From positions 1-9,686 of the IMG/VR virus record IMGVR_UViG_2690316049_000001: a stretch of 9,686 nt of DNA. One strand, given 5' to 3'. Shown here one piece after another: positions 1-9,686 of the stretch. The translations under genes and the position numbers were made by a program. Source of the stretch: a virus (taxonomy: Duplodnaviria > Heunggongvirae > Uroviricota > Caudoviricetes). The notes under the pieces were generated by a model. It did no database searches. It saw nothing but the letters and a program-made list of their open reading frames with translations, and was not told where the DNA came from. Every line of letters begins with the position of its first letter. The first letter of the stretch is position 1.

Positions 1-37
1 GCGAAGGTCGTAGGTTCGACTCCTATTATCGGCACCA
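1..37 (+). tRNA. thrW: 3' end of a tRNA gene (T-arm, acceptor 3' strand, encoded CCA), probably tRNA-Thr; truncated by the window start; prophage attachment side
   Basis: Positions 1-37 read gcgaaggtcgtaGGTTCGACTCCtattatcggcaCCA: a T-loop TTCGACT flanked by a 5-bp T-stem, a 7-nt acceptor 3' strand and CCA. The anticodon is outside the window, so the Thr assignment rests on recalled similarity to the thrW 3' end used as a P22-type attB. A tyrosine integrase converges on it from 52. Confidence 0.7.
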
Positions 38-51
38 TTTAAATCAATAAG

Positions 52-1215
52 TTACACATCATTAGTACCTTCCTTATTTTTTGACTGGGACAAATTTGGG
101 ACCGATGGGTTCAGGATCGAGTCTATTTGCCGTGCGTGTTCGGTAAGGTGATTAGGTGCAAGGTGAGCATATCGACGAACCATTTCGATAGACTCCCAGC
201 CTCCCATTTCCTGTAACACTGACAACGGGACTCCGGCTTGAACCAGCCAACTTGCCCAGGTGTGTCTCAAGTCGTGAAATCTGAAATCATCAATACCAGC
301 CCGTCTCAGCGCCGCTTTCCAGGCTGTGTTTGCGTCATACCGCATCTTCCTTACTGTTGGCGCTTTCGTTCCGTCTGGTTTGGTACAGCTTTCCTTGTAC
401 ACAAATACCCAACGGTGATGATTCCCGATTTGTTTTTTCAAAACGCGACATGCAGTATCATTCAGCGCAACGCCGATTGCGCGGTTTGATTTACTCTCTT
501 CTGGGTTTATCCATGCCACCCGGCGCTGCATATCTATTTGTTGCCATTCAAGGTTGATGATGTTCGAGCGTCTTAAGCCTGTTGCCAGTGCAAATTCAAC
601 AACAGACTTTAATGGCTCCGGACATTCATCAATCAGCCTTTGTGCTTCATGGGGCTCCAGCCAGCGGATCCGTTTATTCTTTGGTTGAGGCACTTTAATA
701 ATTGGTGCCTTATCCAGCATTTTCCATTCACGCTCTGCGGCTCTTAGTAGGGCCTTTATAAATGAAAGATGCGTAGCCTTCGTTGCAACGGACGCTGGTT
801 TTGGCGTGTATTCTGGAACAGGTTTCCCTTTTTTTCTGCATGCTTCTGCCCTGAGTTTCCAGTTTTCCTCATGACGCCGGTTCGTCATTTTCTGCATTGC
901 TGAATAAATTTTTGATTCAGTAATGTCTCTTAGTTGCATTCCTGCGAAATGTTGAAGCCAGAATCCGATCCGGCTTTTGTCATCGTCCAGTGATTTTTTA
1001 TGTGCTTTCTCTTCAAGCCACCTGACACACGCTTCCTCGAACGTTATATCAGGTATTTCACCAAGTTTGCTGACCCGCCATGCTTCAGCCTTTAGCTTGT
1101 CATGGAGTTCTGTCGCCTGCCTTTTGTCCTTTGTTCCAAGAGACTGTTTAAATCTTTTACCGTTCGGCAATGTGAAACTGGCGTACCATATTTCACCTCT
1201 GCGGAAGAGTGACAT
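52..1215 (-). CDS. int: Tyrosine site-specific integrase (P22-type)
   Basis: 387-aa ORF. C-terminal catalytic signature is visible in the translation ([11 protein letters not shown] ... MVRRYAHL, i.e. H-x-x-R and the Tyr nucleophile). N-terminus [31 protein letters not shown] matches my recollection of P22-family Int. SD GAGGA lies 6 nt upstream of the ATG at 1215. Position is immediately next to the tRNA 3' end. Confidence 0.93.
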
Positions 1216-1442
1216 TTTCTTTCCTCTGTTATGCCATCACCCGCGCTCACCTGGACAGTATGCAGCGGAGACTGAAGAGCCGCAATGCAGGCTTGTCGTG
1301 TTGTGAGGTAAGGAGATTTATTCTTAGTGGGATCTTTGCGTGTTGCCTGAAGACGCCCTGTGCGTATCCAGTTAATGGCAGTCGGTCTGGATATCTTGAG
1401 AAAATGACAGGCCTCATCGAGTGTGAGGCTGTATGGCTCCAT
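1092..1442 (-). CDS. xis: Excisionase / Xis-type HTH protein
   Basis: Internal start [33 protein letters not shown] is an excisionase/AlpA-type HTH. SD GAGGTG lies 6 nt upstream of the ATG at 1442..1440. This ATG overlaps the stop of the upstream gene (TAATG). The listed upstream extension to 1526 has no RBS. The 3' end overlaps the int start by 124 nt in a different frame. Confidence 0.8.
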
Positions 1443-1786
1443 TATTTCACCTCTTGCTGTGACATTGTTGAAAAATGGATACCAGCTCGTTGCTGCCAGA
1501 CGATCCAACCGAGAGTCATATCCCATGCCATGTATTCGTTATCGCCGTTTTTTGCTCTCCGACGATCGACTGTTTTACCGAAACGCTTTTCCATAAATAA
1601 TTCATAGGCTGCGCGTTCATCTGGCTCAACTTCCAGAGATGCCAGTGCAATCCGTGCCAGTTCTAAATCATTTTCAAGCTCAGCGCGAATCTCAGCGAAT
1701 GCACTCTGTGTTAAGGCGAACTCAATGCTCTGCACTTTATTCCGTGCGCGCTCAAGCAGTGCATGGTAGTTAATTTCGGTTGTCAT
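1442..1786 (-). CDS. Hypothetical early-left phage protein (114 aa)
   Basis: Complete ORF with SD GAGG upstream. Its ATG overlaps the stop of the upstream PAPS-reductase-like gene (ATGA) and its stop overlaps the xis start, giving a translationally coupled chain. No recognisable motif. Confidence 0.65.
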   Translation of the reverse strand: MTTEINYHALLERARNKVQSIEFALTQSAFAEIRAELENDLELARIALASLEVEPDERAAYELFMEKRFGKTVDRRRAKNGDNEYMAWDMTLGWIVWQQRAGIHFSTMSQQEVK

Positions 1787-2661
1787 ACCCCTACCTCTTT
1801 GAATTCCAATTCCAATTGATCACCCCAGATTTCACATGACTCTGAACACGAGCCGGTATCGAATCGCCTGGCCTGTACCATCGCCTGATACAAATTTCTG
1901 TAGTCGCTGTTGGCAGACATTCTGGCAATTCCGTCAAGCGTCAGGTGACCACGGTACATAATGTCTTTACCTGTTCTGCGATGACCATCCCTGACGTGTT
2001 TGCCTGTAACCAGCTCATTAAAAACTCGCATCAGACCTGGTTCGTCTTTACATGCAAGCCCCAGCTTTTGCGTTGACTTTTTGATGCAGAAAACACAGTT
2101 CCCGAGATGCTCCGGGATTTGCAAATCAAAAGGTTGTTTTCGCCACCACCGGATAACATCCGACTTATCAAAATCTGACAGCTCGGCAAGATACCGGACG
2201 CCCGATTTCGGTTTCAGCCTACGGGGTTCGTCTGCACGAATACCCAGCCATGTGATGTAATTACCTCGCCCGAAATGGTTATCGCAGTATTTTGTGAAAG
2301 GGATGAGTTTTAGCCTATCAGTACAGAGCGCGCCGCCGATGTATGGCGTGCCGTACTTTTTAACCATGTCCATAAACGGTTTAAGCACCGGCATTCGTGT
2401 CTGAATATCCTTTGGCTCCCATTCTGTATAACCATTTGGCTGCCCAAGCTCAGGATTTATATCGACCTGTAACACAGTTAGTGGTATGTCCCAGAACTTC
2501 ACAACCTCCCGGATAAAGCGGTATGTCAGCGGATGTTCGCAACCGGTATCCATAAAGATGTAGCAGACGTTATTGCCAGCCTTTCTTTGTTCTTCCATCA
2601 GGTGAACAAGATATGCGGATGTTCTCCCGCCAGAAAAACTAACTACATGAGTTATGCACAT
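1783..2661 (-). CDS. PP-loop ATP pyrophosphatase, PAPS-reductase-like family protein
   Basis: Chosen start MCITHVVSFSGGRTSAY at 2661 carries the PP-loop motif SGGxTS near the N-terminus. Cys pairs in the C-terminal part (CVFC, CSESC). The listed ORF extends 39 codons further upstream into the preceding gene; the internal ATG was chosen because the PP-loop normally sits at the N-terminus. The start overlaps the upstream gene stop by 10 nt. Confidence 0.78.
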   Translation of the reverse strand: MCITHVVSFSGGRTSAYLVHLMEEQRKAGNNVCYIFMDTGCEHPLTYRFIREVVKFWDIPLTVLQVDINPELGQPNGYTEWEPKDIQTRMPVLKPFMDMVKKYGTPYIGGALCTDRLKLIPFTKYCDNHFGRGNYITWLGIRADEPRRLKPKSGVRYLAELSDFDKSDVIRWWRKQPFDLQIPEHLGNCVFCIKKSTQKLGLACKDEPGLMRVFNELVTGKHVRDGHRRTGKDIMYRGHLTLDGIARMSANSDYRNLYQAMVQARRFDTGSCSESCEIWGDQLELEFKEVGV

Positions 2662-3188
2662 TTGCGTAATTCCGATAACTCGTTGAAGCGTTCCATAAAC
2701 ATCCCGTAGGCATGGCCCGGTGCCAGTGGAATAACTTTGAACATCTCTGTTGCCGGGATACCTTCCAGTACAGGCCATAAAGAGCCATCATCAAGCCCGA
2801 GATCACGGCGTTCGGTTGCCAGCATGATGAGATCGGCATATTTCACGGGCGTGCTCATAACCGGGGGCAACTCGTATTTCTCACGGATTACTGCATCTAT
2901 TTTTTCTTCCATCCGTTTATAGTCAGGAAGAAGGCGTTTCAGTGGCGCCGGGATGTCCTGGCAATACGCTTCTGTTGCATCATGCATTAACGCTTCAAAA
3001 GCAAATTCCTGCGGTACCAGTTGGCTGCAAAGCACCGCATGTTGGGCAACGCTGTAGAAATGTGAAAGATGCCCTGCAAAGCGACAGATATTTGAAAGAG
3101 AAACCGCGATATCGTTAATAACGATGTCGTCTTTATTTATCCTGTCATAATAAAAATGCTTCCCGGAAAAAGTTTTAATAAATGACAT
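2652..3188 (-). CDS. HD-domain phosphohydrolase (YfdR-like 5'-deoxynucleotidase family)
   Basis: 178 aa from the ATG at 3188, with SD GGAGAA upstream. HD motif visible (ALMHDATEAY) with an upstream His (FAGHLSHF). Length and architecture match my recollection of the cryptic-prophage protein YfdR of E. coli; this is unverified. Confidence 0.78.
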   Translation of the reverse strand: MSFIKTFSGKHFYYDRINKDDIVINDIAVSLSNICRFAGHLSHFYSVAQHAVLCSQLVPQEFAFEALMHDATEAYCQDIPAPLKRLLPDYKRMEEKIDAVIREKYELPPVMSTPVKYADLIMLATERRDLGLDDGSLWPVLEGIPATEMFKVIPLAPGHAYGMFMERFNELSELRKCA

Positions 3189-3281
3189 TTTGTTCTCCAC
3201 GTATATGCGCTGCACCGCGCTGAATTCTGGTAAAAGGAAGCCCTCACCATCCGGCGATTATTGAGTCAATTACGTTTCCAT

Positions 3282-3303
3282 AAATGCCCCCGCAGGGGCA
3301 TTT
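3282..3303 (-). terminator. Stable GC hairpin between the DUF2303-like and HD genes (possible attenuator or intra-operon terminator)
   Basis: Perfect palindrome aaatgcccc-cgca-ggggcattt: 9-bp stem, 4-nt loop, with flanking A/T runs. Function not determinable from sequence. Confidence 0.35.
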
Positions 3304-3315
3304 GCAGTAATGAAA

Positions 3316-4140
3316 TCAGGCGGTGAAAGTACCAATAAAGGTTTCTACTTTGCTGTCCTTGAATTTCTCAACAAGCAGATCACGAAATTCGTTAGCCATT
3401 TCTTCCTGCACTGCTTCCAGCTGAATAATGCGCAGAACCAGTACAGGACGATCGCCAGTGATAATGCTGAGGCGTAATTTAAACGGACGTTCTTTCAGGC
3501 CTTCAAACGGAACGCATTTAAATTCAAATGCCACAGGCATAATATCTTTGGTCTTCGCTTCGACAGACTCCATCAGGGAGCGTTTGCCGCTGAAGTCATT
3601 ATCTTCAAAATCAGCGGTCTGGTTTGCTTCAATCGTGATTTTACGGACAGCCGCAGCCGCTTTTGTTGCCTGAATAGCGTCACCATTAGCATCAAAGCCC
3701 ACAAGATAGTCTGCCCAGTCTTCAATCCATTCTGCTAGTGACTTCTGGGAGTTACGCTCGCCGTTAATAGACAACAGAGCAGAGAACGGTGCTGTCTTTT
3801 TCAGTTTGAGTGTGGCGGTGTTATCTGCGTGACCTGGTTCATCAATAGTACCCAGGTTAAGCACACTGACGGCTCGCATATTATCGGCATCGATAAAGCA
3901 GCGGGTGCCTTCATCTGCAAGATCTTTAGAGTAACGGGTAAAGTCATCGATGCTGGCAGTGGAAAGCGCACCACGGAAACGGAAGCGATTTAAATTAAAT
4001 TTTTCCAGATCATGAATGCGGAAATTCTCAGGCAATGCCACAGCATCGGCACCAATCTTACTGATAATTTCATTAACACCCTGAGCAGAAATAAGGGCAT
4101 GGATTTGATTAATTGCGGTTGCGTCTAAGTTCTGAGACAT
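3316..4140 (-). CDS. DUF2303 / YfdQ-like prophage protein (274 aa)
   Basis: Complete ORF with SD GAGGA 7 nt upstream of the ATG at 4140. Size and position, directly upstream of the HD-domain gene, match the YfdQ-YfdR arrangement recalled from E. coli cryptic prophage CPS-53. Family assignment is from memory. Confidence 0.75.
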
Positions 4141-4205
4141 AATAAGTCCTCACTATATAAAGATATTCAGTGATGAGATAAATAATCGGTTAATTAAGAA
4201 CGATA

Positions 4206-4568
4206 TTAATGACCTGCTGCGCGGAGTTTTCCGTCAGGTTCACCGGCAAGAGTCAGTAATTGTCCCTGGTCTTCCTGCAGAATAGTCAGGCGACCACCGC
4301 GATTGACATACATCGGCGTTTCGGTGGTGTCTTCTTCGGAAATTTTCCCGCGGTTAGTCGGGCGAACATATGAGAGTTTGTGTTTGATTTTCACACGGTT
4401 CTCATCAAATGGTTCGATTTCCAGGTTGAGTGAGACCTTACCTTTGGTTTTCGTGTTCATCACACCGGAAGCGACTTCACTGAGAACTGCGCCGATTTTG
4501 GTTTCAAATACGCCGCCGTCCAGCTCCCCAATAAATGCCTGCACATCAGTACTGCGTTCGCTAGCCAT
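4206..4568 (-). CDS. Hypothetical phage protein (120 aa), first gene of the leftward operon
   Basis: Internal start MASERSTDVQAF at 4568 has a strong SD (AGGAG, 7-nt spacing). The 106-codon upstream extension in the ORF track is Arg/Cys-rich translation of GC-rich DNA and has no RBS. Confidence 0.7.
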   Translation of the reverse strand: MASERSTDVQAFIGELDGGVFETKIGAVLSEVASGVMNTKTKGKVSLNLEIEPFDENRVKIKHKLSYVRPTNRGKISEEDTTETPMYVNRGGRLTILQEDQGQLLTLAGEPDGKLRAAGH

Positions 4569-4588
4569 TTTTCTGCTCCTAATCATAT

Positions 4589-4751
4589 CGACCCTGCAAG
4601 GTCGGTTGGTTTCTCCACAAAACAGAGAAGAACACCTGCGGTGGCAGCCGCCCGGATGGATTGGGTTATGAGCCCGTCGTCCGGTGATGTTCTTCTCTGT
4701 TTTGTAAAAAGAGCGGTACCAGCCGGAAGCAAGTGTACAAACTGGTACCGC
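4589..4751. other. GC-rich structured non-coding segment: three consecutive hairpins, including an 18-bp perfect inverted repeat
   Basis: Hairpin A: cgacc/ggtcg (4589-4604). Hairpin B: ACAAAACAGAGAAGAACA (4617-4634) pairs perfectly with TGTTCTTCTCTGTTTTGT (4688-4705), enclosing a 53-nt GC-rich loop with sub-stems (gcgg/ccgc, ccgga/tccgg, ggg/ccc). Hairpin C: 10-bp stem gcggtaccag/ctggtaccgc (4713-4722 with 4742-4751). No credible ORF on either strand. Confidence 0.4.
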
Positions 4752-4977
4752 GAGGACTACACACAGCATAAAGTTGTGGTGCCGGGTGCCTCCCGGTGCC
4801 TGGCGAAGGTTGCACACCAGGCGGGTGGGTATCCACAGAAGGTCGACTGTCAGCCTCAACCTTAACCCGCGTGCGCTGAGCCGCATTCACCACAACGCTA
4901 AGGATTCTCTCTGGTTGAAAATACTTAGCTGTTATGTGCCTGCTTTTAGCCACATCAGGCGAGGTGGACCTAGTTAT

Positions 4978-5021
4978 TCCCCAACAACAAGGATTTGGTT
5001 AATCTGGATATCCCCAACAAC
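4978..5021 (+). repeat. Two 11-bp direct repeats TCCCCAACAAC spaced 33 bp apart, upstream of the 5038 ORF
   Basis: Exact copies at 4978-4988 and 5011-5021, each preceded by AT. A 33-bp spacing is about three helical turns, typical for a direct-repeat transcription-factor binding pair. Confidence 0.5.
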
Positions 5022-5037
5022 TAGCTGAGTATTCAAC

Positions 5038-5559
5038 GTGATAGCTGAACTGTCTGCGGCTATGGCCGCTATAAAGGAGACTGCCGGTCTTGCTAAGGTT
5101 ATTAATGACGCGAAAACGGATGCAGAAGTTAAAGCTGCAACCATTGAACTCCAGAACAAACTAATCACGCTTCAGGCAGAATGCTTCTCTCTTGGCGATG
5201 CGATCCGCCTTCGTGATGAAGAGGTGATGCATCTCAAAGCAAAAATTGCAGAGTTTGAAGATTTTTGTGCCAAGGTAGAAGGATATGTCCTTGATCAGCT
5301 TGACTCTGGTGCTTTTGTTTACTCTAAAAATGAAATTGTGAGTGGAAAAGAAATAACTGTGCATCTGTGCCCACTTTGTTATTCCAAAAATATAAAATCG
5401 ATACTTCATCCGCTTCCAGTAGGTAAAACTTCTCATTTTCTTACAAGCCGTTGCCTTCACTGTGAAAATAAATTTCTTATGGAAAAAAATCCGATGTACG
5501 AACGACCAAGATCATTACGTGAGTTGGGGCGAGATCTGAATTCGCCTTGGATTCCTTAA
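5038..5559 (+). CDS. Hypothetical coiled-coil plus C4 zinc-ribbon protein (moron-like, convergent with cI)
   Basis: 173 codons from GTG 5038 (alternative ATG at 5062). N-terminal half is predicted helical (IELQNKLITLQAECFSLGDAIRLRDEEVMHLKAKIAEFEDF). C-terminal part has Cys-x2-Cys, 24 residues, Cys-x2-Cys (HLCPLC ... CLHC). Strongly AT-rich, unlike its neighbours. Followed by an intrinsic terminator. The start codon is uncertain because neither candidate has a strong SD. Confidence 0.6.
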   Translation: MIAELSAAMAAIKETAGLAKVINDAKTDAEVKAATIELQNKLITLQAECFSLGDAIRLRDEEVMHLKAKIAEFEDFCAKVEGYVLDQLDSGAFVYSKNEIVSGKEITVHLCPLCYSKNIKSILHPLPVGKTSHFLTSRCLHCENKFLMEKNPMYERPRSLRELGRDLNSPWIP

Positions 5560-5601
5560 ATCTTGCATTGGTTGGATGATACCCAGATTGTTAAAGAGCT
5601 A

Positions 5602-5624
5602 AGCGTCCTGTAGGGCGCTTTTTT
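5602..5624 (+). terminator. Rho-independent terminator downstream of the 5038-5559 ORF
   Basis: agcgtcc-tgta-gggcgct: 7-bp stem with one G.U pair and a 4-nt loop, followed by a run of six T (5619-5624). Confidence 0.6.
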
Positions 5625-5702
5625 GTTGCTAACGAATCATCCTGGACTTCATATGCCCCAGGCGGCTACTTCGTGGGCGTCCTGCCTGTTCGTTATCTTT
5701 GA

Positions 5703-5731
5703 TATAAAATCTAACTTAACTTAGTTGTCAT
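5703..5731 (-). promoter_or_regulatory. Candidate leftward (pL-like) promoter with an operator-like 14-mer (OL-a, CTAACTTAACTTAG, 5711-5724) in its spacer
   Basis: On the minus strand: -35 ATGACA (5731..5726), spacer, weak -10 TTTATA/TATATC (about 5708..5701). The 14-mer CTAACTTAACTTAG matches the CTAA-N5-CTTAG motif found twice in the cI-cro intergenic region. Lies just downstream of the cI stop, where OL/pL sits in lambdoid phages. Confidence 0.3.
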
Positions 5732-5789
5732 GGCAAGAGAAAACACCAAACTTTTCTTAGTTCGGTGCCTTAGTTAGAGAAGAGAGGCC

Positions 5790-6416
5790 TTAGAGTTCGT
5801 ATTGAACTCCTTTGACTACACCAATGATAAGGCAATTACCATTGATAGGGATGTTGGGATACCGAGGATTTAATGGTACTAAAAACTTTTGAGGGCCATC
5901 GATGACTAATTTTTTTACTGTAGCTTCGTTTGTTCCATCAAGTCGAGCGATGACTATTTTTCCATGACGAGGTTCTGCATCTGGATCTACAATCACTGTT
6001 GCGCCTTCTGGTATTGTTGGGAGGCCATTAGGGTTAGTCATGGAGTCACCTTTAACCTCTAATGCAAATGAGTTATCACCAACCTTTAATGATGTATCTA
6101 CCCACTTGTCCACTTCACTAAACACTTCTGCTGCCCTGCACTCAGTAAACTGCCCAGCCTGAACCCACGATATTACAGGAACTCTGCGCATGTTTGTGAC
6201 GAGTTTGCCTTCAAACTCAGCACCATAAAGAATGTAATCTATTGACGTATTGAAGAACTTCGCTAATTTCGAAAGTGCCTCCCCACCAGGGGTATTGATG
6301 TCTTTCTCCCAGTACCCCACAGCAACGTCGCTTACTCCACAAAATTTACCCAATTCTTTCTGGGACGTTCTGGTAACTCTTCTCAGAGCTTTTATACGCT
6401 GACCAACCGTTTCCAT
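5790..6416 (-). CDS. cI: CI-like prophage repressor (HTH_XRE plus S24 LexA-type autopeptidase domain)
   Basis: 208 aa. N-terminal HTH (TSQKELGKFCGVSDVAVGYWEKD). Ala-Gly cleavage site (WVQAGQF). S24 catalytic motifs visible (GDSM with the Ser, downstream Lys in TVKKL). Divergent from the cro-like gene. Confidence 0.9.
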   Translation of the reverse strand: METVGQRIKALRRVTRTSQKELGKFCGVSDVAVGYWEKDINTPGGEALSKLAKFFNTSIDYILYGAEFEGKLVTNMRRVPVISWVQAGQFTECRAAEVFSEVDKWVDTSLKVGDNSFALEVKGDSMTNPNGLPTIPEGATVIVDPDAEPRHGKIVIARLDGTNEATVKKLVIDGPQKFLVPLNPRYPNIPINGNCLIIGVVKGVQYEL

Positions 6417-6428
6417 AGGAGCACCATT

Positions 6429-6491
6429 TCTTTAATTGCTAAGTAATCTTAGTTTTTATTGACCAAAGATAGATTTGTAATTAGCATCTAA
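6429..6491. promoter_or_regulatory. OR-like operator/promoter region: two 14-bp CTAA-N5-CTTAG sites flanking a candidate pR
   Basis: OR-a CTAAGTAATCTTAG (6429-6442, palindromic outer arms) and OR-b CTAATAAAACTTAG (6478-6491). Between them: -35 TTGACC (6449-6454), 17-nt spacer, -10 TAGCAT (6472-6477). OR-b overlaps the -10 and start-site region. SD GGAGGG precedes the cro ATG at 6514. Confidence 0.5.
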
Positions 6492-6513
6492 TAAAACTTA
6501 GTTTGGAGGGCGT

Positions 6514-6714
6514 ATGACAACTGACGATATCGAAAGCTACTTCGGCAGTATTGAGAAAGTTGCTGCTTTTTTCGGCATAACAACTGAAGCCGTTTATCAG
6601 TGGCGAAACCGTCCGGGCCAGTTAATTCCAAAAGGACGTGCAGCAGAAGCTGCATATAGAACTTGCGGACGGTTGCCATTTAAACCTGAGCTTTATGAAA
6701 AATCTAATGGATAA
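6514..6714 (+). CDS. cro: Cro-like small HTH regulator (YdaS/Cro family)
   Basis: 66 aa, HTH (IEKVAAFFGITTEAVYQWRN), strong SD, divergent from the cI-like gene across the operator region. Confidence 0.85.
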   Translation: MTTDDIESYFGSIEKVAAFFGITTEAVYQWRNRPGQLIPKGRAAEAAYRTCGRLPFKPELYEKSNG

Positions 6715-7309
6715 ATCGATTAACAGAAACCACAGAACGATGAGGCTAACCGTGGGTAAGCATCACTGGAAAGTAGAAAAACAGCCTGAGTGGTACGTGA
6801 AAGCTGTCAGAAAAACTATCGCAGCGTTGCCGGGGGGTTACGCTGAAGCAGCTGACTGGCTGGATGTAACAGAGAACGCATTATTTAACCGCCTTCGTGC
6901 CGATGGCGATCAGATTTTCCCGCTGGGATGGGCAATGATTTTGCAACGTGCTGGTGGAACTCACTTCATTGCTGACGCTGTGGCGCAGTCTGCAAATGGC
7001 GTCTTTGTGTCTCTTCCTGACGTCGAGGATGTGGACAACGCCGATATTAACCAGCGTCTGCTGGAAGTCATTGAACAGATCGGCAGTTATTCAAAACAGA
7101 TTCGTTCAGCAATCGAAGACGGTGTAGTGGAACCGCATGAGAAGACAGCAATTAACGACGAGCTGTATCTCTCAATTTCGAAGCTGCAGGAGCATGCAGC
7201 ACTTGTCTACAAAATTTTTTGCATTTCAGAAAGTAATGACGCCCGCGAGTGTGCAGCTCCGGGCGTCGTGGCGTCGATTGCTTCTGGTTGTGGAGAAACT
7301 AACGCATGA
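6695..7309 (+). CDS. Early regulatory protein in the CII position (possibly CII/YdaT-like); start uncertain
   Basis: Long ORF directly after cro. Candidate starts are ATG 6695, 6707 or 6740, none with a strong SD; the listed GTG 6638 has an SD only 1 nt away. The stop overlaps the next ATG (ATGA at 7306-7309). Family assignment is positional and from weak recollection. Confidence 0.55.
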
Positions 7310-7644
7310 ACAGTTTAACAACACACTACCGTCGCTCGCAACTGATTGCGCTTCCTGTACCGGGTGGAAAAGCGAAGGTGGAGTATTGCTATGCAGTAAA
7401 TGTACCAGGTGACAGGGAAATTGTAACCCACAGCTTTGCAGAGTGGGCTGTGGGTGATTTCAACCGGCAGAAGGAGACAGTCCTTTGCGACAAGTTAACC
7501 GCTGGTTCAAAGATCACTACGGAGTGCCCGTCAGAGTCATTCGTTGGGAACCGGAAACACAACGGGTTATCTACCTCCGCGAAGGCTATGAGCATGAGTG
7601 CTTCAGCCCGCTCGAACAGTTTCGTCGTAAATTCAGGGAAATAG
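7306..7644 (+). CDS. Hypothetical protein; possible frameshifted gene (see findings)
   Basis: ATG coupled to the upstream stop (ATGA). The first ~58 residues look protein-like. The C-terminal half in this frame is low-complexity, while the -1 frame (7458-7664) encodes a protein-like sequence ending [54 protein letters not shown]. Confidence 0.45.
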
Positions 7645-7653
7645 AGGTCGGTC

Positions 7654-9686
7654 ATGAGCACTAAATTAACCGGCTATGTATGGGATGGTTGCGCTGCATC
7701 AGGCATGAAGTTATCCAGCGTGGCAATTATGGCCCGCCTGGCTGATTTCAGTAATGACGAAGGTGTGTGCTGGCCATCAATTGAAACCATTGCCCGTCAG
7801 ATTGGCGCGGGGATGAGTACCGTCAGAACGGCTATCGCACGGCTGGAAGCAGAAGGCTGGTTAACGCGTAAGGCGCGTCGCCAGGGTAACAGCGCACAGG
7901 CGGCAGCAGACTCACAAACTGCATCGGCAAACTCCGCGACAGCAGCCAAAAAATCAGAAACCAACGCGAAAAATAGCGAGGCAGCAGCAAAGAGCAGCGA
8001 AACAAACGCTAAAGCCAGCGAAACTAATGCTAAATCCAGTGAAACAAACGCGGCGAAATCTGCGGCGGACGCACTTAATTATCGCAACCAGGCGCAATTA
8101 ATTGTTGGCGATAATATCGGTCTTGGCTCAGCCCCGCGTGATTGTCCTGATATTTCCGGCAACCCATCAGGGTATATCGGATTTATGCGCATTATGAGTA
8201 ATGCAAAAGGATTTCCATCGATTGCATCCGGTGAAAGCAGTCTTACGGGGTTTATTAGTCAGGTAGATGGAACACCAGCGTATACAGGTGTATTTCAGGG
8301 ATGGGCTACGCGCTCGCTTTATACTTATCGCTGGAATCCGACAATAGGCCCGCAATGGACACGCCACGCAAGAAAAGATGAGGTTATCCGATTTCAGCGT
8401 TCAAGCGACACAAGAACCATCATTTTATCTACTGACGTTCAGGCGGACGGCTGTTACTTACAGGTTGATGCTGACGGTCAGTGGGGCGCATTTAACCCTA
8501 AAGCTGGTAGATGGCAACCGCTCGCAGTTGCGCAAGGTGGCACAGGGGCGAATGATGCAAGTACAGCGCGCTCTAAACTTGAAGTCATGTTTGAAGCAAA
8601 AACTGGCCTTGATGCGAATACGAACTTAAACGATATAAAAGGTACTACAGCCGGTTTTTATTACCAACCAATGTCTGCCAACGCAAAGCCAGAACTAAAT
8701 TACCCGATACAGCTTGCTGGTGCATTGTTAGTGCAAAGAACTGGTGCTAATGGTAGTGATGGTTGTATCCAGAGCTATTTTGTATATAACAATTCATCAA
8801 TTCTTTATAGAAGGATATATACCAGCACACAAGGTTGGAGTGTATGGAAAAAAATAGTATTAACAGAAAGAATTGAAGAAGGCGAATCGACTACTTACGT
8901 TTATTCGAATTACTCACCATCAGCGCCACGACTTCAGGTGTCAACATCTGGATTGTGGGGTTGCCATAACGGATCGTCATGGGTTCCATTACCTATTGGA
9001 CAAGGAGGCACTAATGCGGCAACTGTTGATGGTGCCAGAACGAATCTTGGCTTAGGTAGGAACAACAGCCCTCAACTTAACAGTCTATTTCTTGATAGAT
9101 ATAGTGATTCGACCAATACATACACATCTAGTGGAATTCTCCATACAAGACTGTTAGCAACTGACAGCACTGTGCGTCTTGGTGCTGATATGTATGTTGA
9201 AACTTTATCAAATGAGCCAGGTCAATTAACAATAAGGTTTACATACGATGGTTCAACTGGTGCTTCAAAATATCTAAACCTTAATTCAGAAGGTAATTTA
9301 ATTGTAGATAGTGCGATACTGAAATCAACGGTTGAAAAACCTTTACAAATAAGGAGCGCTAACCCAGCAATAAGATTTAATGAAACAGATCGCCCGGCTA
9401 ACACGCCTACTTATACTCTCATTGCTAATGCTGGCGACTGGTTTATTCAGAAACGCGATTATGATGATGCCGGAAGCGTTAGTAACGCAATTGCATATAA
9501 TTTCGCAAACGACAGAATTGATGTGCAGAATCTTAAAGCGTCTGGGTTAATTACAGCTAACTCAGGAATTGCAACATTAACAGGTCATGACTGGAACGCT
9601 CAGCATACTGATAACGTCGACAAATTTAGATCAATTGCAGGCAGTACAAACGGCCCGGCAGGCTCTATGGTTCTTGGCGGCATTCA
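7654..9686 (+). CDS. In-frame chimeric ORF: N-terminal HTH domain (replication-initiator-like) fused to a side-tail-fibre body; 3' end beyond the window
   Basis: Translated by hand: ATG 7654 with SD GAGG, no stop codon to 9686 (at least 677 codons). Residues 1-79 carry an HTH (PSIETIARQIGAGMSTVRTAIARLEAEGWLTRKARRQGN). From about residue 80 the sequence is tail-fibre-like: KSETNAKNSE / SSETNAKASETNAKSSETNA repeats, then two modules with the fibre motif QGGTGANDASTARSKL and QGGTNAATVDGARTNLGLG. Absent from the ORF track only because it has no stop in the window. Confidence 0.75.
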   Translation, partial: MSTKLTGYVWDGCAASGMKLSSVAIMARLADFSNDEGVCWPSIETIARQIGAGMSTVRTAIARLEAEGWLTRKARRQGNSAQAAADSQTASANSATAAKKSETNAKNSEAAAKSSETNAKASETNAKSSETNAAKSAADALNYRNQAQLIVGDNIGLGSAPRDCPDISGNPSGYIGFMRIMSNAKGFPSIASGESSLTGFISQVDGTPAYTGVFQGWATRSLYTYRWNPTIGPQWTRHARKDEVIRFQRSSDTRTIILSTDVQADGCYLQVDADGQWGAFNPKAGRWQPLAVAQGGTGANDASTARSKLEVMFEAKTGLDANTNLNDIKGTTAGFYYQPMSANAKPELNYPIQLAGALLVQRTGANGSDGCIQSYFVYNNSSILYRRIYTSTQGWSVWKKIVLTERIEEGESTTYVYSNYSPSAPRLQVSTSGLWGCHNGSSWVPLPIGQGGTNAATVDGARTNLGLGRNNSPQLNSLFLDRYSDSTNTYTSSGILHTRLLATDSTVRLGADMYVETLSNEPGQLTIRFTYDGSTGASKYLNLNSEGNLIVDSAILKSTVEKPLQIRSANPAIRFNETDRPANTPTYTLIANAGDWFIQKRDYDDAGSVSNAIAYNFANDRIDVQNLKASGLITANSGIATLTGHDWNAQHTDNVDKFRSIAGSTNGPAGSMVLGGI
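7948..8058 (+). repeat. Imperfect tandem repeats encoding (K/A/S)SETNA(K) heptad-like units inside the tail-fibre portion
   Basis: Four consecutive units at nucleotide level (tcagaaaccaacgcgaaa, agcgaaacaaacgctaaa, agcgaaactaatgctaaa, agtgaaacaaacgcggcgaaa). Such repeats are typical of the proximal shaft of lambda Stf-like fibres. Confidence 0.6.

What the first reader, a model, noticed from the sequence alone, without database searches (positions are those of the whole stretch)
7654..9686. In-frame fusion of an HTH (replication-initiator-like) N-terminus to a tail-fibre body; replication, lysis and head genes absent
In an intact lambdoid genome the gene after cro and CII encodes the replication initiator, and the tail-fibre gene lies about 20-30 kb away. 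Here a 79-residue HTH N-terminus continues in-frame into SETNAK shaft repeats and a receptor-binding-type fibre, with the junction near nucleotide 7890. This implies a large internal deletion that left a defective prophage, and the junction happens to preserve the reading frame. The chimera could be expressed from pR on derepression. A misassembly would give the same picture.
Basis: partly seen in the sequence, partly recalled or inferred. Interest (0 to 1): 0.65.

Follow-up and report, generated by a model that had tools for sequence, protein, structure and literature searches.

The report
Deletion-made initiator–tail-fibre fusion pseudogene
The odd gene is real. It is a scar left when 7.4 kb was lost from an already decayed virus remnant in the E. 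coli ST410 chromosome, and the break sits at a spot in the viral replication gene where dozens of other independent deletions also begin.

Summary
The ORF from 7654 encodes 79 residues of a lambda-O-like replication initiator (HTH_36) fused in frame to a side-tail-fibre shaft and body (1047 aa in total, with a Peptidase_S74 C-terminus). The junction is GGGTAAC at 7884-7890.

It is not a misassembly. The identical sequence occurs in 14 complete E. coli genomes and the exact protein on 171 contigs.

It is not a natural architecture. Full-length relatives carry PF08400 or J-derived N-termini, never an HTH.

The window matches ST410 strain YD786 at 100% on both sides of a 7,389-bp gap, so a clean deletion with a 6-7 bp overlap explains it. 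That ancestor was already a remnant: its initiator was broken and it carried a J'-'stf fusion. So decay was stepwise, not one 20-30 kb event.

Unexpectedly, the left breakpoint (T|A in GGGT|AACC) is a recurrent hot spot. About 50 distinct fusions start there, including K-12 e14 ymfN/oweE. K-12 CPS-53 yfdO uses it as a right endpoint. The gene's only two other GNTANC sites are also breakpoints. Partner sites share a palindromic G-N-T|A-N-C signature that contiguous microhomology does not explain. The enzyme or process responsible is unknown.

The parts
1..37 (+). 3' end of tRNA-Thr (thrW), the left attachment border of the element
   Evidence: RefSeq tRNA-Thr lies at L001 7563-7638, and window position = L001 position - 7601. 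A 64-bp repeat of this region lies 14.7 kb downstream, at L001 22262-22325.
52..1170 (-). Tyrosine integrase of the prophage remnant
   Evidence: ORF list. RefSeq WP_001132557.1.
5790..6416 (-). CI-like repressor (LexA family, S24 peptidase type)
6459..6487 (+). pR-like sigma-70 promoter match (TTGACC-17-TAGCAT) in front of cro
   Evidence: This is a consensus match only.
6514..6714 (+). cro-like gene
6752..7309 (+). ymfL, a CII-like activator
   Evidence: Pfam PF06892. phrog_101 CII-like.
7306..7644 (+). ymfM homologue (112 aa), not annotated in RefSeq here
   Evidence: 97% identical to the K-12 e14 ORF. phrog_1170. Its role as an SOS-inducible division inhibitor comes from bioRxiv 10.1101/2020.11.19.390815.
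7485..7664 (+). DUF4222 gene, overlapping ymfM in another frame and the fusion ORF start
   Evidence: Pfam PF13973. RefSeq annotation.
7654..7890 (+). First 79 codons (winged-HTH domain) of a lambda-O-like replication initiator gene
   Evidence: HTH_36. Identical to the first 79 aa of intact 313-aa proteins that match phrog_391 'replication initiation O-like' at E 1.5e-134.
7833..7834 (+). Second recurrent breakpoint (T|A in GGCT|ATCG), intact in this window
   Evidence: 16 distinct fusions break at aa 59-61. DNA confirmed in L137 and L138.
7862..7863 (+). Third, minor recurrent breakpoint (T|A in GGTT|AACG), intact in this window
   Evidence: It is one of only three GNTANC sites in the gene. 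Fusions P0078 and P0083 break here. DNA confirmed in L139 and L140.
7884..7890 (+). Deletion junction: GGGTAAC is shared by the initiator gene and the J'-'stf gene, with the hot-spot T|A step at 7887|7888
   Evidence: Junction alignments. Window 1-7889 and 7884-9686 both match YD786 at 100%.
7891..9686 (+). Side-tail-fibre (stf-type) shaft and body; the ORF continues beyond the window to an S74 chaperone domain
   Evidence: 99-100% DNA identity to stf genes from 7884/7887 onwards. PHROG tail fibre families. S74 domain at aa 904-955.
7995..8051 (+). 21-nt tandem repeats encoding the SETNAK shaft units

Best explanation
The ORF is a deletion-generated chimeric pseudogene in a decaying lambdoid prophage integrated at thrW in E. 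coli ST410.

Shown:
- An ancestor of the YD786 type already carried a truncated initiator gene and a J'-'stf fusion gene.
- It lost 7,389 bp: the yfdN tail, Dam-like methyltransferase, LexA-like, RusA, KilA-N, DUF968, Q and KAP NTPase genes, plus fragments.
- The crossover lay between GGGTAA in the initiator stub and GGGTAA(C) in the fibre gene.
- The result is codons 1-79 of the O-like initiator fused in frame to the fibre shaft.
- The deletion removed what was left of the early-right operon. The ori iterons and the initiator C-terminal domain were already gone.
- The left breakpoint, the T|A step of GGGT|AACC, is a recurrent deletion hot spot of this initiator gene.

Inferred:
- The chimera is co-transcribed from pR with cro, ymfL and ymfM when the CI-like repressor is inactivated during SOS.
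- The product has no phage function. It lacks both the initiator's C-terminal domain and the fibre's virion-attachment domain. At most it is a DNA-binding decoy or inert fibre.
- The hot spot reflects a sequence-dependent breakage or rejoining step at G-N-T|A-N-C sites, followed by selection for loss of the origin and lethal late genes.
- The agent responsible is not identified.
For: - Clean deletion: window 1-7889 equals YD786 L009 8490-16378 and window 7884-9686 equals L009 23762-25564, both at 100%. Flanking genes have identical protein accessions in both strains. Both strains are ST410 (PMC6052333).
- Real and inherited: 14 complete genomes and 171 contigs.
- Not a natural architecture: the best 120 homologues have PF08400 or J-derived N-termini, and none has HTH_36.
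- Parent of the N-terminus: intact 313-aa initiators are phrog_391 O-like. They carry 15-bp-period iterons 60-210 nt downstream of the breakpoint.
- Hot-spot counts: about 50 distinct C-terminal tails follow ...ARRQG, 16 follow ...TVRTA, and only about 25 lie elsewhere between aa 59 and 132.
- DNA-level junctions at the same T|A: K-12 e14, YD786, this window, L066, L080, L095, L133, L135 and L136.
- K-12 CPS-53 yfdO begins exactly at |AACCGCAATGCG.
- The gene's only three GNTANC sites are all breakpoints.
- Partner sites for 32 events at the main hot spot (window 7887|7888): -3 G in 24/32, -1 T in 25/32, +1 A in 29/32, +3 C in 20/32. Position -5 is C in 16/32 although the hot spot itself has A. 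Position +2 prefers T although the hot spot has A.
- 13 of 28 T|A partner sites are strict GNT|ANC, against 9.4% of background TA steps (p = 4e-7).
- All 33 partners that could be placed lie downstream on the same strand, 0.5-11.9 kb away.
Against: - Expression and any activity of the chimera are untested.
- Most hot-spot events were inferred from protein sequences, with parental DNA taken from related rather than identical phages.
- The protein search returned only hits of 139 aa or shorter, so the sample is censored.
- Some tails may descend from one event followed by divergence or recombination rather than from independent events.
- G at -3, T at -1, A at +1 and C at +3 are also what homology to the two main hot-spot sites would give. 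The argument for a motif beyond microhomology rests on positions -5, -2 and +2 and on the third site.
- A probe with the DUF968 C-terminus showed a more diffuse breakpoint pattern, including a cluster with no TA.
- The sister deletion in EC98 has a GA junction. Not all decay of these prophages follows the signature.
Confidence: 0.9

Rival explanations
1. The junction is an assembly artefact that joins two unrelated prophage regions.
For: Tail-fibre and early-region sequences are repeated between prophages of one genome, with a median of 1 and up to 8 matching places per genome. That can mislead assemblers.
Against: The 3,287-bp stretch across the junction is 100% identical in 14 independently assembled complete genomes from different laboratories and countries. 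The exact protein is on 171 contigs. The junction has the same structure as the Sanger-era K-12 e14 ymfN junction.
Confidence: 0.01
2. HTH-plus-fibre is a genuine, functional protein architecture of some phages, for example a fibre with a DNA-binding head.
For: The fusion is in frame and the ORF is intact over 1047 aa. RefSeq annotates it as an ordinary CDS.
Against: No other HTH_36+S74 protein appears among the 120 best homologues. All have PF08400 or J-derived N-termini. The element has no virion genes at all. The N-terminal 79 aa are 100% identical to a replication initiator whose gene is collinear in hundreds of prophages. The same N-terminus is joined to dozens of unrelated sequences, many out of frame.
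Confidence: 0.02
3. A single large (20-30 kb) deletion of an intact prophage produced the fusion.
For: In intact relatives the initiator and stf genes are tens of kb apart. The 7-bp identity GGGTAAC also exists between an intact initiator gene and the fibre gene.
Against: YD786, of the same sequence type and with 100% identical flanks, keeps 7.4 kb between the two points. It already lacks head, lysis and most tail genes, and it already has the J'-'stf fusion that supplies the right-hand junction sequence. A third ST410-locus variant, EC98, carries a different deletion of the same intermediate.
Confidence: 0.05
4. The breakpoint coincidences are ordinary, non-specific microhomology-mediated illegitimate recombination. 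On this view the apparent hot spot is created by selection (loss of ori with the repressor kept) and by shared ancestry of the fusions.
For: Junction overlaps are short, 1-7 bp. Deletions that remove the ori of a non-excisable prophage should be favoured. Some fusions are widespread and could be old; P0015 is indexed in 89 blocks of the assembly collection. Other junctions in the same prophages lack the signature.
Against: - Selection cannot fix an endpoint to one phosphodiester bond.
- About 50 different partners share the same left nucleotide.
- The same site serves as a right endpoint in CPS-53.
- All three GNTANC sites of the gene, and essentially only those, are recurrent breakpoints.
- Partner preferences at -5 and +2 differ from the hot spot's own bases, and -2 is barely enriched, unlike a base-pairing model.
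- The same pairing (hot-spot site with the RusA site) occurs with two RusA alleles and two immunity modules.
Confidence: 0.25
5. A sequence-specific dimeric nuclease, topoisomerase or recombinase, from host or phage, cuts or exchanges strands at G-N-T|A-N-C sites. Pairs of such sites are joined, deleting the DNA between them.
For: - Palindromic consensus C-G-G-N-T|A-N-C-C-G at partner sites.
- Hybrid junctions always fall at the central TA.
- Use of the site in both orientations.
- Reuse of the same partner sites with different hot spots.
- Other K-12 prophage junctions fall at GGT|A steps: e14 portal'-'baseplate, CPS-53 yfdM and J'-'stf.
Against: - No known enzyme with this specificity could be named.
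- e14 Pin sites are different.
- RayT needs GTAG-REP substrates.
- The reported gyrase cleavage preference, scission before G with a 4-bp stagger, does not fit a central T|A hybrid junction.
- Only one possible inversion-type junction was seen, which a symmetric recombinase would be expected to produce more often.
- No DNA-break data are available.
Confidence: 0.35

Closest known systems
ymfN (oweE'-'aaaE) of the e14 element in E. coli K-12
   Same: It has the same 5' partner, the same initiator gene at 99% DNA identity. It has the same breakpoint: K-12 reads CGCCAGGGT|GATGG and this window reads CGCCAGGGT|AACAGC. It sits at the same position in the cro-ymfL-ymfM operon and is also an in-frame fusion to a late gene.
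   Different: The 3' partner is the large terminase in K-12, with a 3-bp overlap (GGT). Here it is the side tail fibre, with a 6-7 bp overlap. The integration site (icd versus thrW) and the immunity region also differ.
yfdO of the CPS-53 (KpLE1) remnant in K-12
   Same: It is the same initiator gene broken at the very same T|A step.
   Different: It is the reciprocal product. The C-terminal part, including the ori iterons, is retained and the N-terminal HTH and immunity region are deleted. The left partner is CTCATCAT|ATCGACC upstream of yfdP.
Lambda O-type replication initiators with the origin inside the gene
   Same: The intact parent has an N-terminal winged-HTH domain, iterons in the linker-coding region and an O-like C-terminal domain (phrog_391).
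   Different: Only the first 79 codons survive here. There are no iterons and no C-terminal domain, so it cannot work as an initiator.
Lambdoid side tail fibres (Stf) with an S74 intramolecular chaperone
   Same: The shaft repeats, the body and the C-terminal Peptidase_S74 domain are 89-100% identical to stf proteins of E. coli prophages.
   Different: It lacks the PF08400 N-terminal attachment domain. The downstream tfa is a 135-nt fragment, and no tail exists to attach to.
Deletions with one endpoint at a defined cleavage site and the other at look-alike sequences. Examples are Int-promoted lambda b deletions, and deletions at the M13 and pC194 origin nick sites described by Michel and Ehrlich (recalled from memory, not checked here).
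   Same: The pattern is the same: one or a few fixed endpoints, and many variable partners that resemble the fixed site around the crossover.
   Different: Here no recombinase or nickase site is known at the fixed point. The fixed sites lie inside a coding region about 60 nt before the iterons, and the shared signature is a short palindrome centred on TA.

Membership tests
Lambda O-like replication initiator (phrog_391 / HTH_36 N-terminal domain) | N-terminal winged-HTH DNA-binding domain | tested here: met
   HTH_36 at aa 24-70, E 1.7e-10. The first 79 aa are 100% identical to those of intact initiators.
Lambda O-like replication initiator (phrog_391 / HTH_36 N-terminal domain) | C-terminal O-like / helicase-recruiting domain | tested here: not met
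   Residues 80-313 of the intact protein are absent. Identity to the intact gene ends at 7890.
Lambda O-like replication initiator (phrog_391 / HTH_36 N-terminal domain) | Origin iterons within the gene | tested here: not met
   The iterons (15-bp period, L010 1917-2070) lie downstream of the breakpoint in intact genes. They are not in the window.
Lambdoid side tail fibre (Stf) | PF08400 prophage tail-fibre N-terminal (virion attachment) domain | tested here: not met
   No PF08400 hit, whereas intact homologues have it. Identity to normal stf begins only at 7884.
Lambdoid side tail fibre (Stf) | Ala/Ser/Glu-rich shaft repeats, fibre body and C-terminal Peptidase_S74 chaperone | tested here: met
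   The S74 domain lies outside the window, at L001 aa 904-955.
Lambdoid side tail fibre (Stf) | Intact tail-fibre assembly gene downstream and a tail to attach to | tested here: not met
   Only a 135-nt tfa fragment follows. There are no tail, head or lysis genes in the element.
Deletion-fusion pseudogenes of cryptic lambdoid prophages (ymfN type) | Both halves collinear with separate genes in intact relatives, joined at a short overlap | tested here: met
   Left parent L002/L004/L010, right parent L005/L009, with a 6-7 bp overlap.
Deletion-fusion pseudogenes of cryptic lambdoid prophages (ymfN type) | A precursor state still present in a close relative | tested here: met
   YD786 (ST410) has 100% identical flanks and 7,389 bp of extra DNA.
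Site-specific recombination by e14 Pin / Din-family invertases | Crossover sites resembling pix/gix (AAACC-NN-GGTTT core) | tested here: not met
   The pix arms of K-12 e14 are AAACCTTGGTTTGGGAGAAGG. The breakpoints are GGGT|AACC, GGCT|ATCG and GGTT|AACG.
REP-associated tyrosine transposase (RayT) cleavage | A GTAG-tagged REP hairpin with cleavage at a CT dinucleotide | tested here: not met
   The requirements are taken from PMC8266576. There is no GTAG-REP next to the breakpoints.

The most novel reading that the evidence does not exclude
E. coli, or the lambdoid phages themselves, have a sequence-dependent activity that breaks and rejoins DNA at G-N-T|A-N-C steps (best match GGNT|ANCC). This activity repeatedly excises the origin and initiator region and the late genes from resident prophages. 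Prophage domestication at this module would then be a semi-programmed, site-directed process rather than random decay. The HTH-fibre chimera, e14 ymfN and CPS-53 yfdO would all be its footprints.
Probability: 0.3. Interest if true: 0.8.

Novelty: new member of a known kind. Interest (0 to 1): 0.5.

Why it matters
On its own the chimera is an ordinary scar of prophage decay. It is a useful clade marker inside the high-risk ST410 lineage, and RefSeq presents it as a normal 'tail fiber domain-containing protein' (some sources call it a 'GntR family regulator').

The wider point matters more. The same nucleotide in the initiator gene is the endpoint of dozens of different deletions, including two textbook K-12 pseudogenes. 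The partner sites share a short palindromic signature. If that holds up, it points to an unrecognised sequence-specific step in how E. coli disarms lambdoid prophages. That step could be tested directly by mutating an 8-bp motif.

Tried and rejected
- Misassembly: rejected.
- Natural HTH+fibre architecture: rejected.
- One-step large deletion: rejected in favour of stepwise decay.
- Pin/Din invertase pseudo-sites: the pix sequence is unrelated.
- RayT/REP: it needs GTAG-REP.
- Gyrase: the Topo-Seq paper gives no sharp central motif. The stated preference, scission before G with a 4-bp stagger, does not give hybrid junctions at a central T|A.
- ssDNA secondary structure: folds of the region are no better than shuffles (z about -0.2). 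Two small hairpins do end 3 nt before two of the hot spots.
- Other candidates considered from memory and dropped because the sequences do not fit: Chi, Ter, DnaA box, EcoKI, BstEII-type (GGTNACC), EcoRV star, integron secondary sites (GWTMW), and the IS5, IS630, Tn5 and Tn10 target consensuses. None was tested.
- Literature searches for ymfN/oweE and for deletion hot spots in prophages found no description of this breakpoint.
- A second probe with the DUF968 C-terminus, meant to test whether any GNTANC site is hot, gave a mixed and inconclusive picture.
Full report
**What is in the window.** The window starts in the 3' end of tRNA-Thr (thrW) and runs through the left arm of a lambdoid prophage remnant.
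- The genes in order are: integrase, an excisionase-like HTH gene, early-left genes (PAPS-reductase-like, yfdR, yfdQ, yfdP), a LexA-family CI-type repressor (5790-6416, minus strand), cro (6514-6714), ymfL (CII-like, 6752-7309), a ymfM homologue (7306-7644) and a DUF4222 gene (7485-7664).
- After these comes the ORF in question, from 7654 to the end of the window.
- In the complete record (strain WCHEC020031) that ORF is 1047 aa. It is followed by a 135-nt tfa fragment, a GIY-YIG gene and IS1A. Head, tail, lysis and replication genes are all absent.

**Checking the observation.**
- The first 79 residues carry an HTH_36 domain. They are identical to the N-terminus of intact 313-aa proteins that PHROGs classes as 'replication initiation O-like' at E 1.5e-134.
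- The intact gene carries a 15-bp-period iteron array (L010 1917-2070), starting about 60 nt downstream of the point where the window diverges. This is a lambda-O-like arrangement.
- From residue 80 on, the protein is a side tail fibre. It has SETNAK-type shaft repeats (21-nt tandem array at 7995-8051), a body 89-100% identical to prophage stf proteins, and a C-terminal Peptidase_S74 chaperone domain.
- DNA identity to intact initiator genes ends at 7890, and identity to fibre genes starts at 7884. The shared heptamer is GGGTAAC.

**Artefact or natural architecture?**
- The 3,287 bp spanning the junction are 100% identical in 14 complete E. coli genomes. The exact 1047-aa protein is recorded on 171 contigs. 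This excludes a misassembly.
- Among the 120 best homologues of the whole protein, all have either the normal PF08400 fibre N-terminal domain or a J-derived N-terminus. None has an HTH. The architecture is not a widespread natural one.

**How it arose.**
- Strain YD786 has the same thrW element with identical protein accessions on both sides, but with extra DNA in between. YD786 and AMA1167, one of the 14 genomes, are both ST410 (PMC6052333).
- Window 1-7889 equals YD786 locus L009 8490-16378, and window 7884-9686 equals L009 23762-25564, both at 100% identity.
- The window is therefore YD786 minus 7,389 bp, with the crossover inside GGGTAA.
- The lost segment held the yfdN tail, a Dam-like methyltransferase, LexA-like, RusA, KilA-N, DUF968, Q and KAP-NTPase genes, gene fragments and the J-derived start of the fibre gene.
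- The YD786 state was itself heavily decayed. Its initiator gene was already cut after codon 79 and joined to the end of yfdN (CCAGGGTAA|GCGGGC). Its fibre gene was already a J'-'stf fusion (…ATTGCGGGT|AACAGCGCA). Head and lysis genes were already gone.
- Strain EC98 carries a different 7.1-kb deletion of the same intermediate.
But it was the last of several steps and removed 7.4 kb, not 20-30 kb.

**Likely behaviour of the chimera (inferred).**
- A pR-like promoter match lies at 6459-6487, and no convincing + strand terminator lies between cro and the ORF.
- In e14 the equivalent operon is SOS-inducible: ymfM is the SfiC division inhibitor, and the next gene is oweE/ymfN (bioRxiv 10.1101/2020.11.19.390815).
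- The chimera is therefore probably transcribed on derepression.
- It lacks the initiator's C-terminal domain and ori, and it lacks the fibre's attachment domain and any tail. I regard it as a pseudogene product, at most an iteron-binding decoy. None of this was tested.

**The unexpected part: the breakpoint is a hot spot.**
- K-12 e14 breaks the same gene at CGCCAGGGT|GATGG (joined to terminase). YD786 breaks it at CGCCAGGGTAA|GCGG. The window breaks it at CGCCAGGGTAAC|AGCG.
- Searching the 79-aa N-terminus against the protein collection returned 120 short proteins. About 50 distinct C-terminal tails follow …ARRQG (aa 77-79), 16 follow …TVRTA (aa 59-61), 2-3 follow …EGWL (aa 70), and about 25 are scattered elsewhere.
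- The tails are pieces of RusA, DUF968, KilA-N, Q, methyltransferase, terminases, capsid, fibres and IS3 OrfA, in and out of frame.
- DNA-level junctions confirm the same T|A step in L066, L080, L095, L133, L135 and L136 for the main site, in L137 and L138 for the second site, and in L139 and L140 for the third.
- The initiator-RusA fusion occurs with two RusA alleles (AACCGG and AACAGG) and two immunity modules. This argues for recurrence.
- In K-12 CPS-53, yfdO begins exactly at |AACCGCAATGCG. The same step therefore also serves as a right endpoint.
- The initiator gene contains only three GNTANC hexamers, and they are exactly these three breakpoints.

**Signature of the partner sites.**
- I could place 36-42 partner sites on related phage DNA.
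- For 32 events at the main site: G at -3 in 24, T at -1 in 25, A at +1 in 29 and C at +3 in 20.
- C at -5 occurs in 16 although the hot spot itself has A. T is preferred at +2 although the hot spot has A. Enrichment at -2 is weak.
- The consensus is the palindrome C-G-G-N-T|A-N-C-C-G.
- Of 28 partners with T|A, 13 are strict GNT|ANC, against 9.4% of TA steps in the same DNA (p = 4e-7).
- All 33 partners that lie in loci with an intact gene are downstream on the same strand, 0.5-11.9 kb away, so they are simple deletions.
- Other junctions in the same prophage family also sit at GGT|A-type steps: e14 portal'-'baseplate J (TGTGGTA|CCG joined with GTGGGTA|TAT), CPS-53 yfdM (TAC shared), and J'-'stf.

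**Limits of the hot-spot evidence.**
- Not every junction follows the signature. EC98 has a GA overlap.
- A probe with the DUF968 C-terminus gave a diffuse pattern, including a cluster with no TA.
- Most events are inferred from proteins, the hit list was limited to proteins of 139 aa or shorter, and parental DNA came from relatives.

**What could cause it.** I could not identify the agent.
- e14 Pin sites are unrelated.
- RayT needs GTAG-REP substrates.
- The published gyrase preference does not produce hybrid junctions at a central T|A.
- ssDNA folding of the region is unremarkable.
- The data fit best a two-part model. First, a sequence-dependent break or strand exchange at GNT|ANC steps. 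Second, strong selection for survivors that have lost the ori and lethal late genes while keeping the repressor side.
- Plain microhomology joining plus selection remains a live alternative. I give it about 0.25.
- I found no paper describing this breakpoint.

**Verdict.**
- The finding is real and correctly located. Its interpretation is largely right but needs two corrections: the decay was stepwise, and the breakpoint is a hot spot, not a chance position.
- The chimera itself is an ordinary fusion pseudogene of the ymfN type, a new member of a known kind.
- The recurrent, motif-linked breakpoint is the part worth following up.

Noticed in passing
window 7887|7888, 7833|7834, 7862|7863; related loci L003, L009, L066, L080, L095, L132-L140: All three GNTANC sites of the O-like initiator gene are recurrent deletion endpoints. 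About 50, 16 and 2-3 distinct fusions use them. Partner sites share a palindromic G-N-T|A-N-C signature. K-12 ymfN and yfdO use the same T|A step in opposite orientations.
   Followed up: yes
window 7306-7644 (+): A 112-aa ORF is 97% identical to K-12 e14 YmfM, the SOS-inducible division inhibitor SfiC. RefSeq does not annotate it in this strain. It overlaps the annotated DUF4222 gene (7485-7664) in another frame.
   Followed up: partly
L007 9110-9190 (strain EC98); L009 16038 / 23133: A sister strain carries an independent 7.1-kb deletion of the same YD786-type intermediate. It joins the ymfM/DUF4222 region to the J' part of the fibre gene with a 2-bp (GA) overlap. The same roughly 7-kb block was therefore lost twice.
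   Followed up: partly
L009 16378|16379 and 23750-23768 (YD786): The YD786 remnant already had its initiator cut at the hot spot and joined to the yfdN 3' end. Its fibre was already fused to a J fragment at GCGGGT|AACAGC. The fibre gene has therefore had its N-terminus replaced in frame twice in succession.
   Followed up: yes
L006 7950-8060 (strain AR_0369); protein P0246: The same fibre gene is joined to other upstream partners elsewhere. One is a ParB-adjacent ORF at …ATCAATAAC|AGCGCAC, the same stf position. Another is a Lom'-'stf fusion a few codons further in.
   Followed up: partly
L135 and L136, 3001-3417: A 138-aa initiator-RusA fusion (protein P0015) is indexed in 89 blocks of the public assembly collection. 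It exists with two junction-adjacent RusA alleles (AACCGG and AACAGG) and two different immunity regions. This suggests repeated formation, or spread by recombination.
   Followed up: partly
L134 1367-2350 (strain P276M): An in-frame initiator-KilA-N fusion reads CGCCGGTA|CAGCC where the hot spot normally reads CGCCAGGGTA. The junction carries an extra 2-nt loss that restores the KilA-N reading frame.
   Followed up: no
L003 8283-8363 (K-12 e14); L132 6436-6496 (K-12 CPS-53): Two further classic K-12 pseudogene junctions have their crossover in a shared TA-containing overlap. They are portal'-'baseplate J and yfdM'-'tail-fibre-like.
   Followed up: partly
window 7822-7834 and 7856-7887: Small hairpin-forming inverted repeats end 3 nt before two of the hot-spot T|A steps: CCGTcagaACGG, and CTGGTtaACGCGtaaggCGCGTcGCCAG. 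Overall folding energy is not better than shuffled sequence.
   Followed up: partly
L001 22262-22325 versus window 1-55: A 64-bp direct repeat of the thrW 3' end and att region lies 14.7 kb downstream. It marks the right border of an island that also holds IS1A, an AraC-family gene and pseudogenes.
   Followed up: no
window 4583-4893 (-) and 1783-2778 (-): RefSeq marks a frameshifted hypothetical gene next to yfdP. A PAPS-reductase-family gene sits in the early-left operon. Neither was examined.
   Followed up: no
L001 18651-19424 (-): A LEM-3-like GIY-YIG nuclease gene lies just beyond the tfa fragment at the right end of the remnant. No link to the deletions was tested.
   Followed up: no
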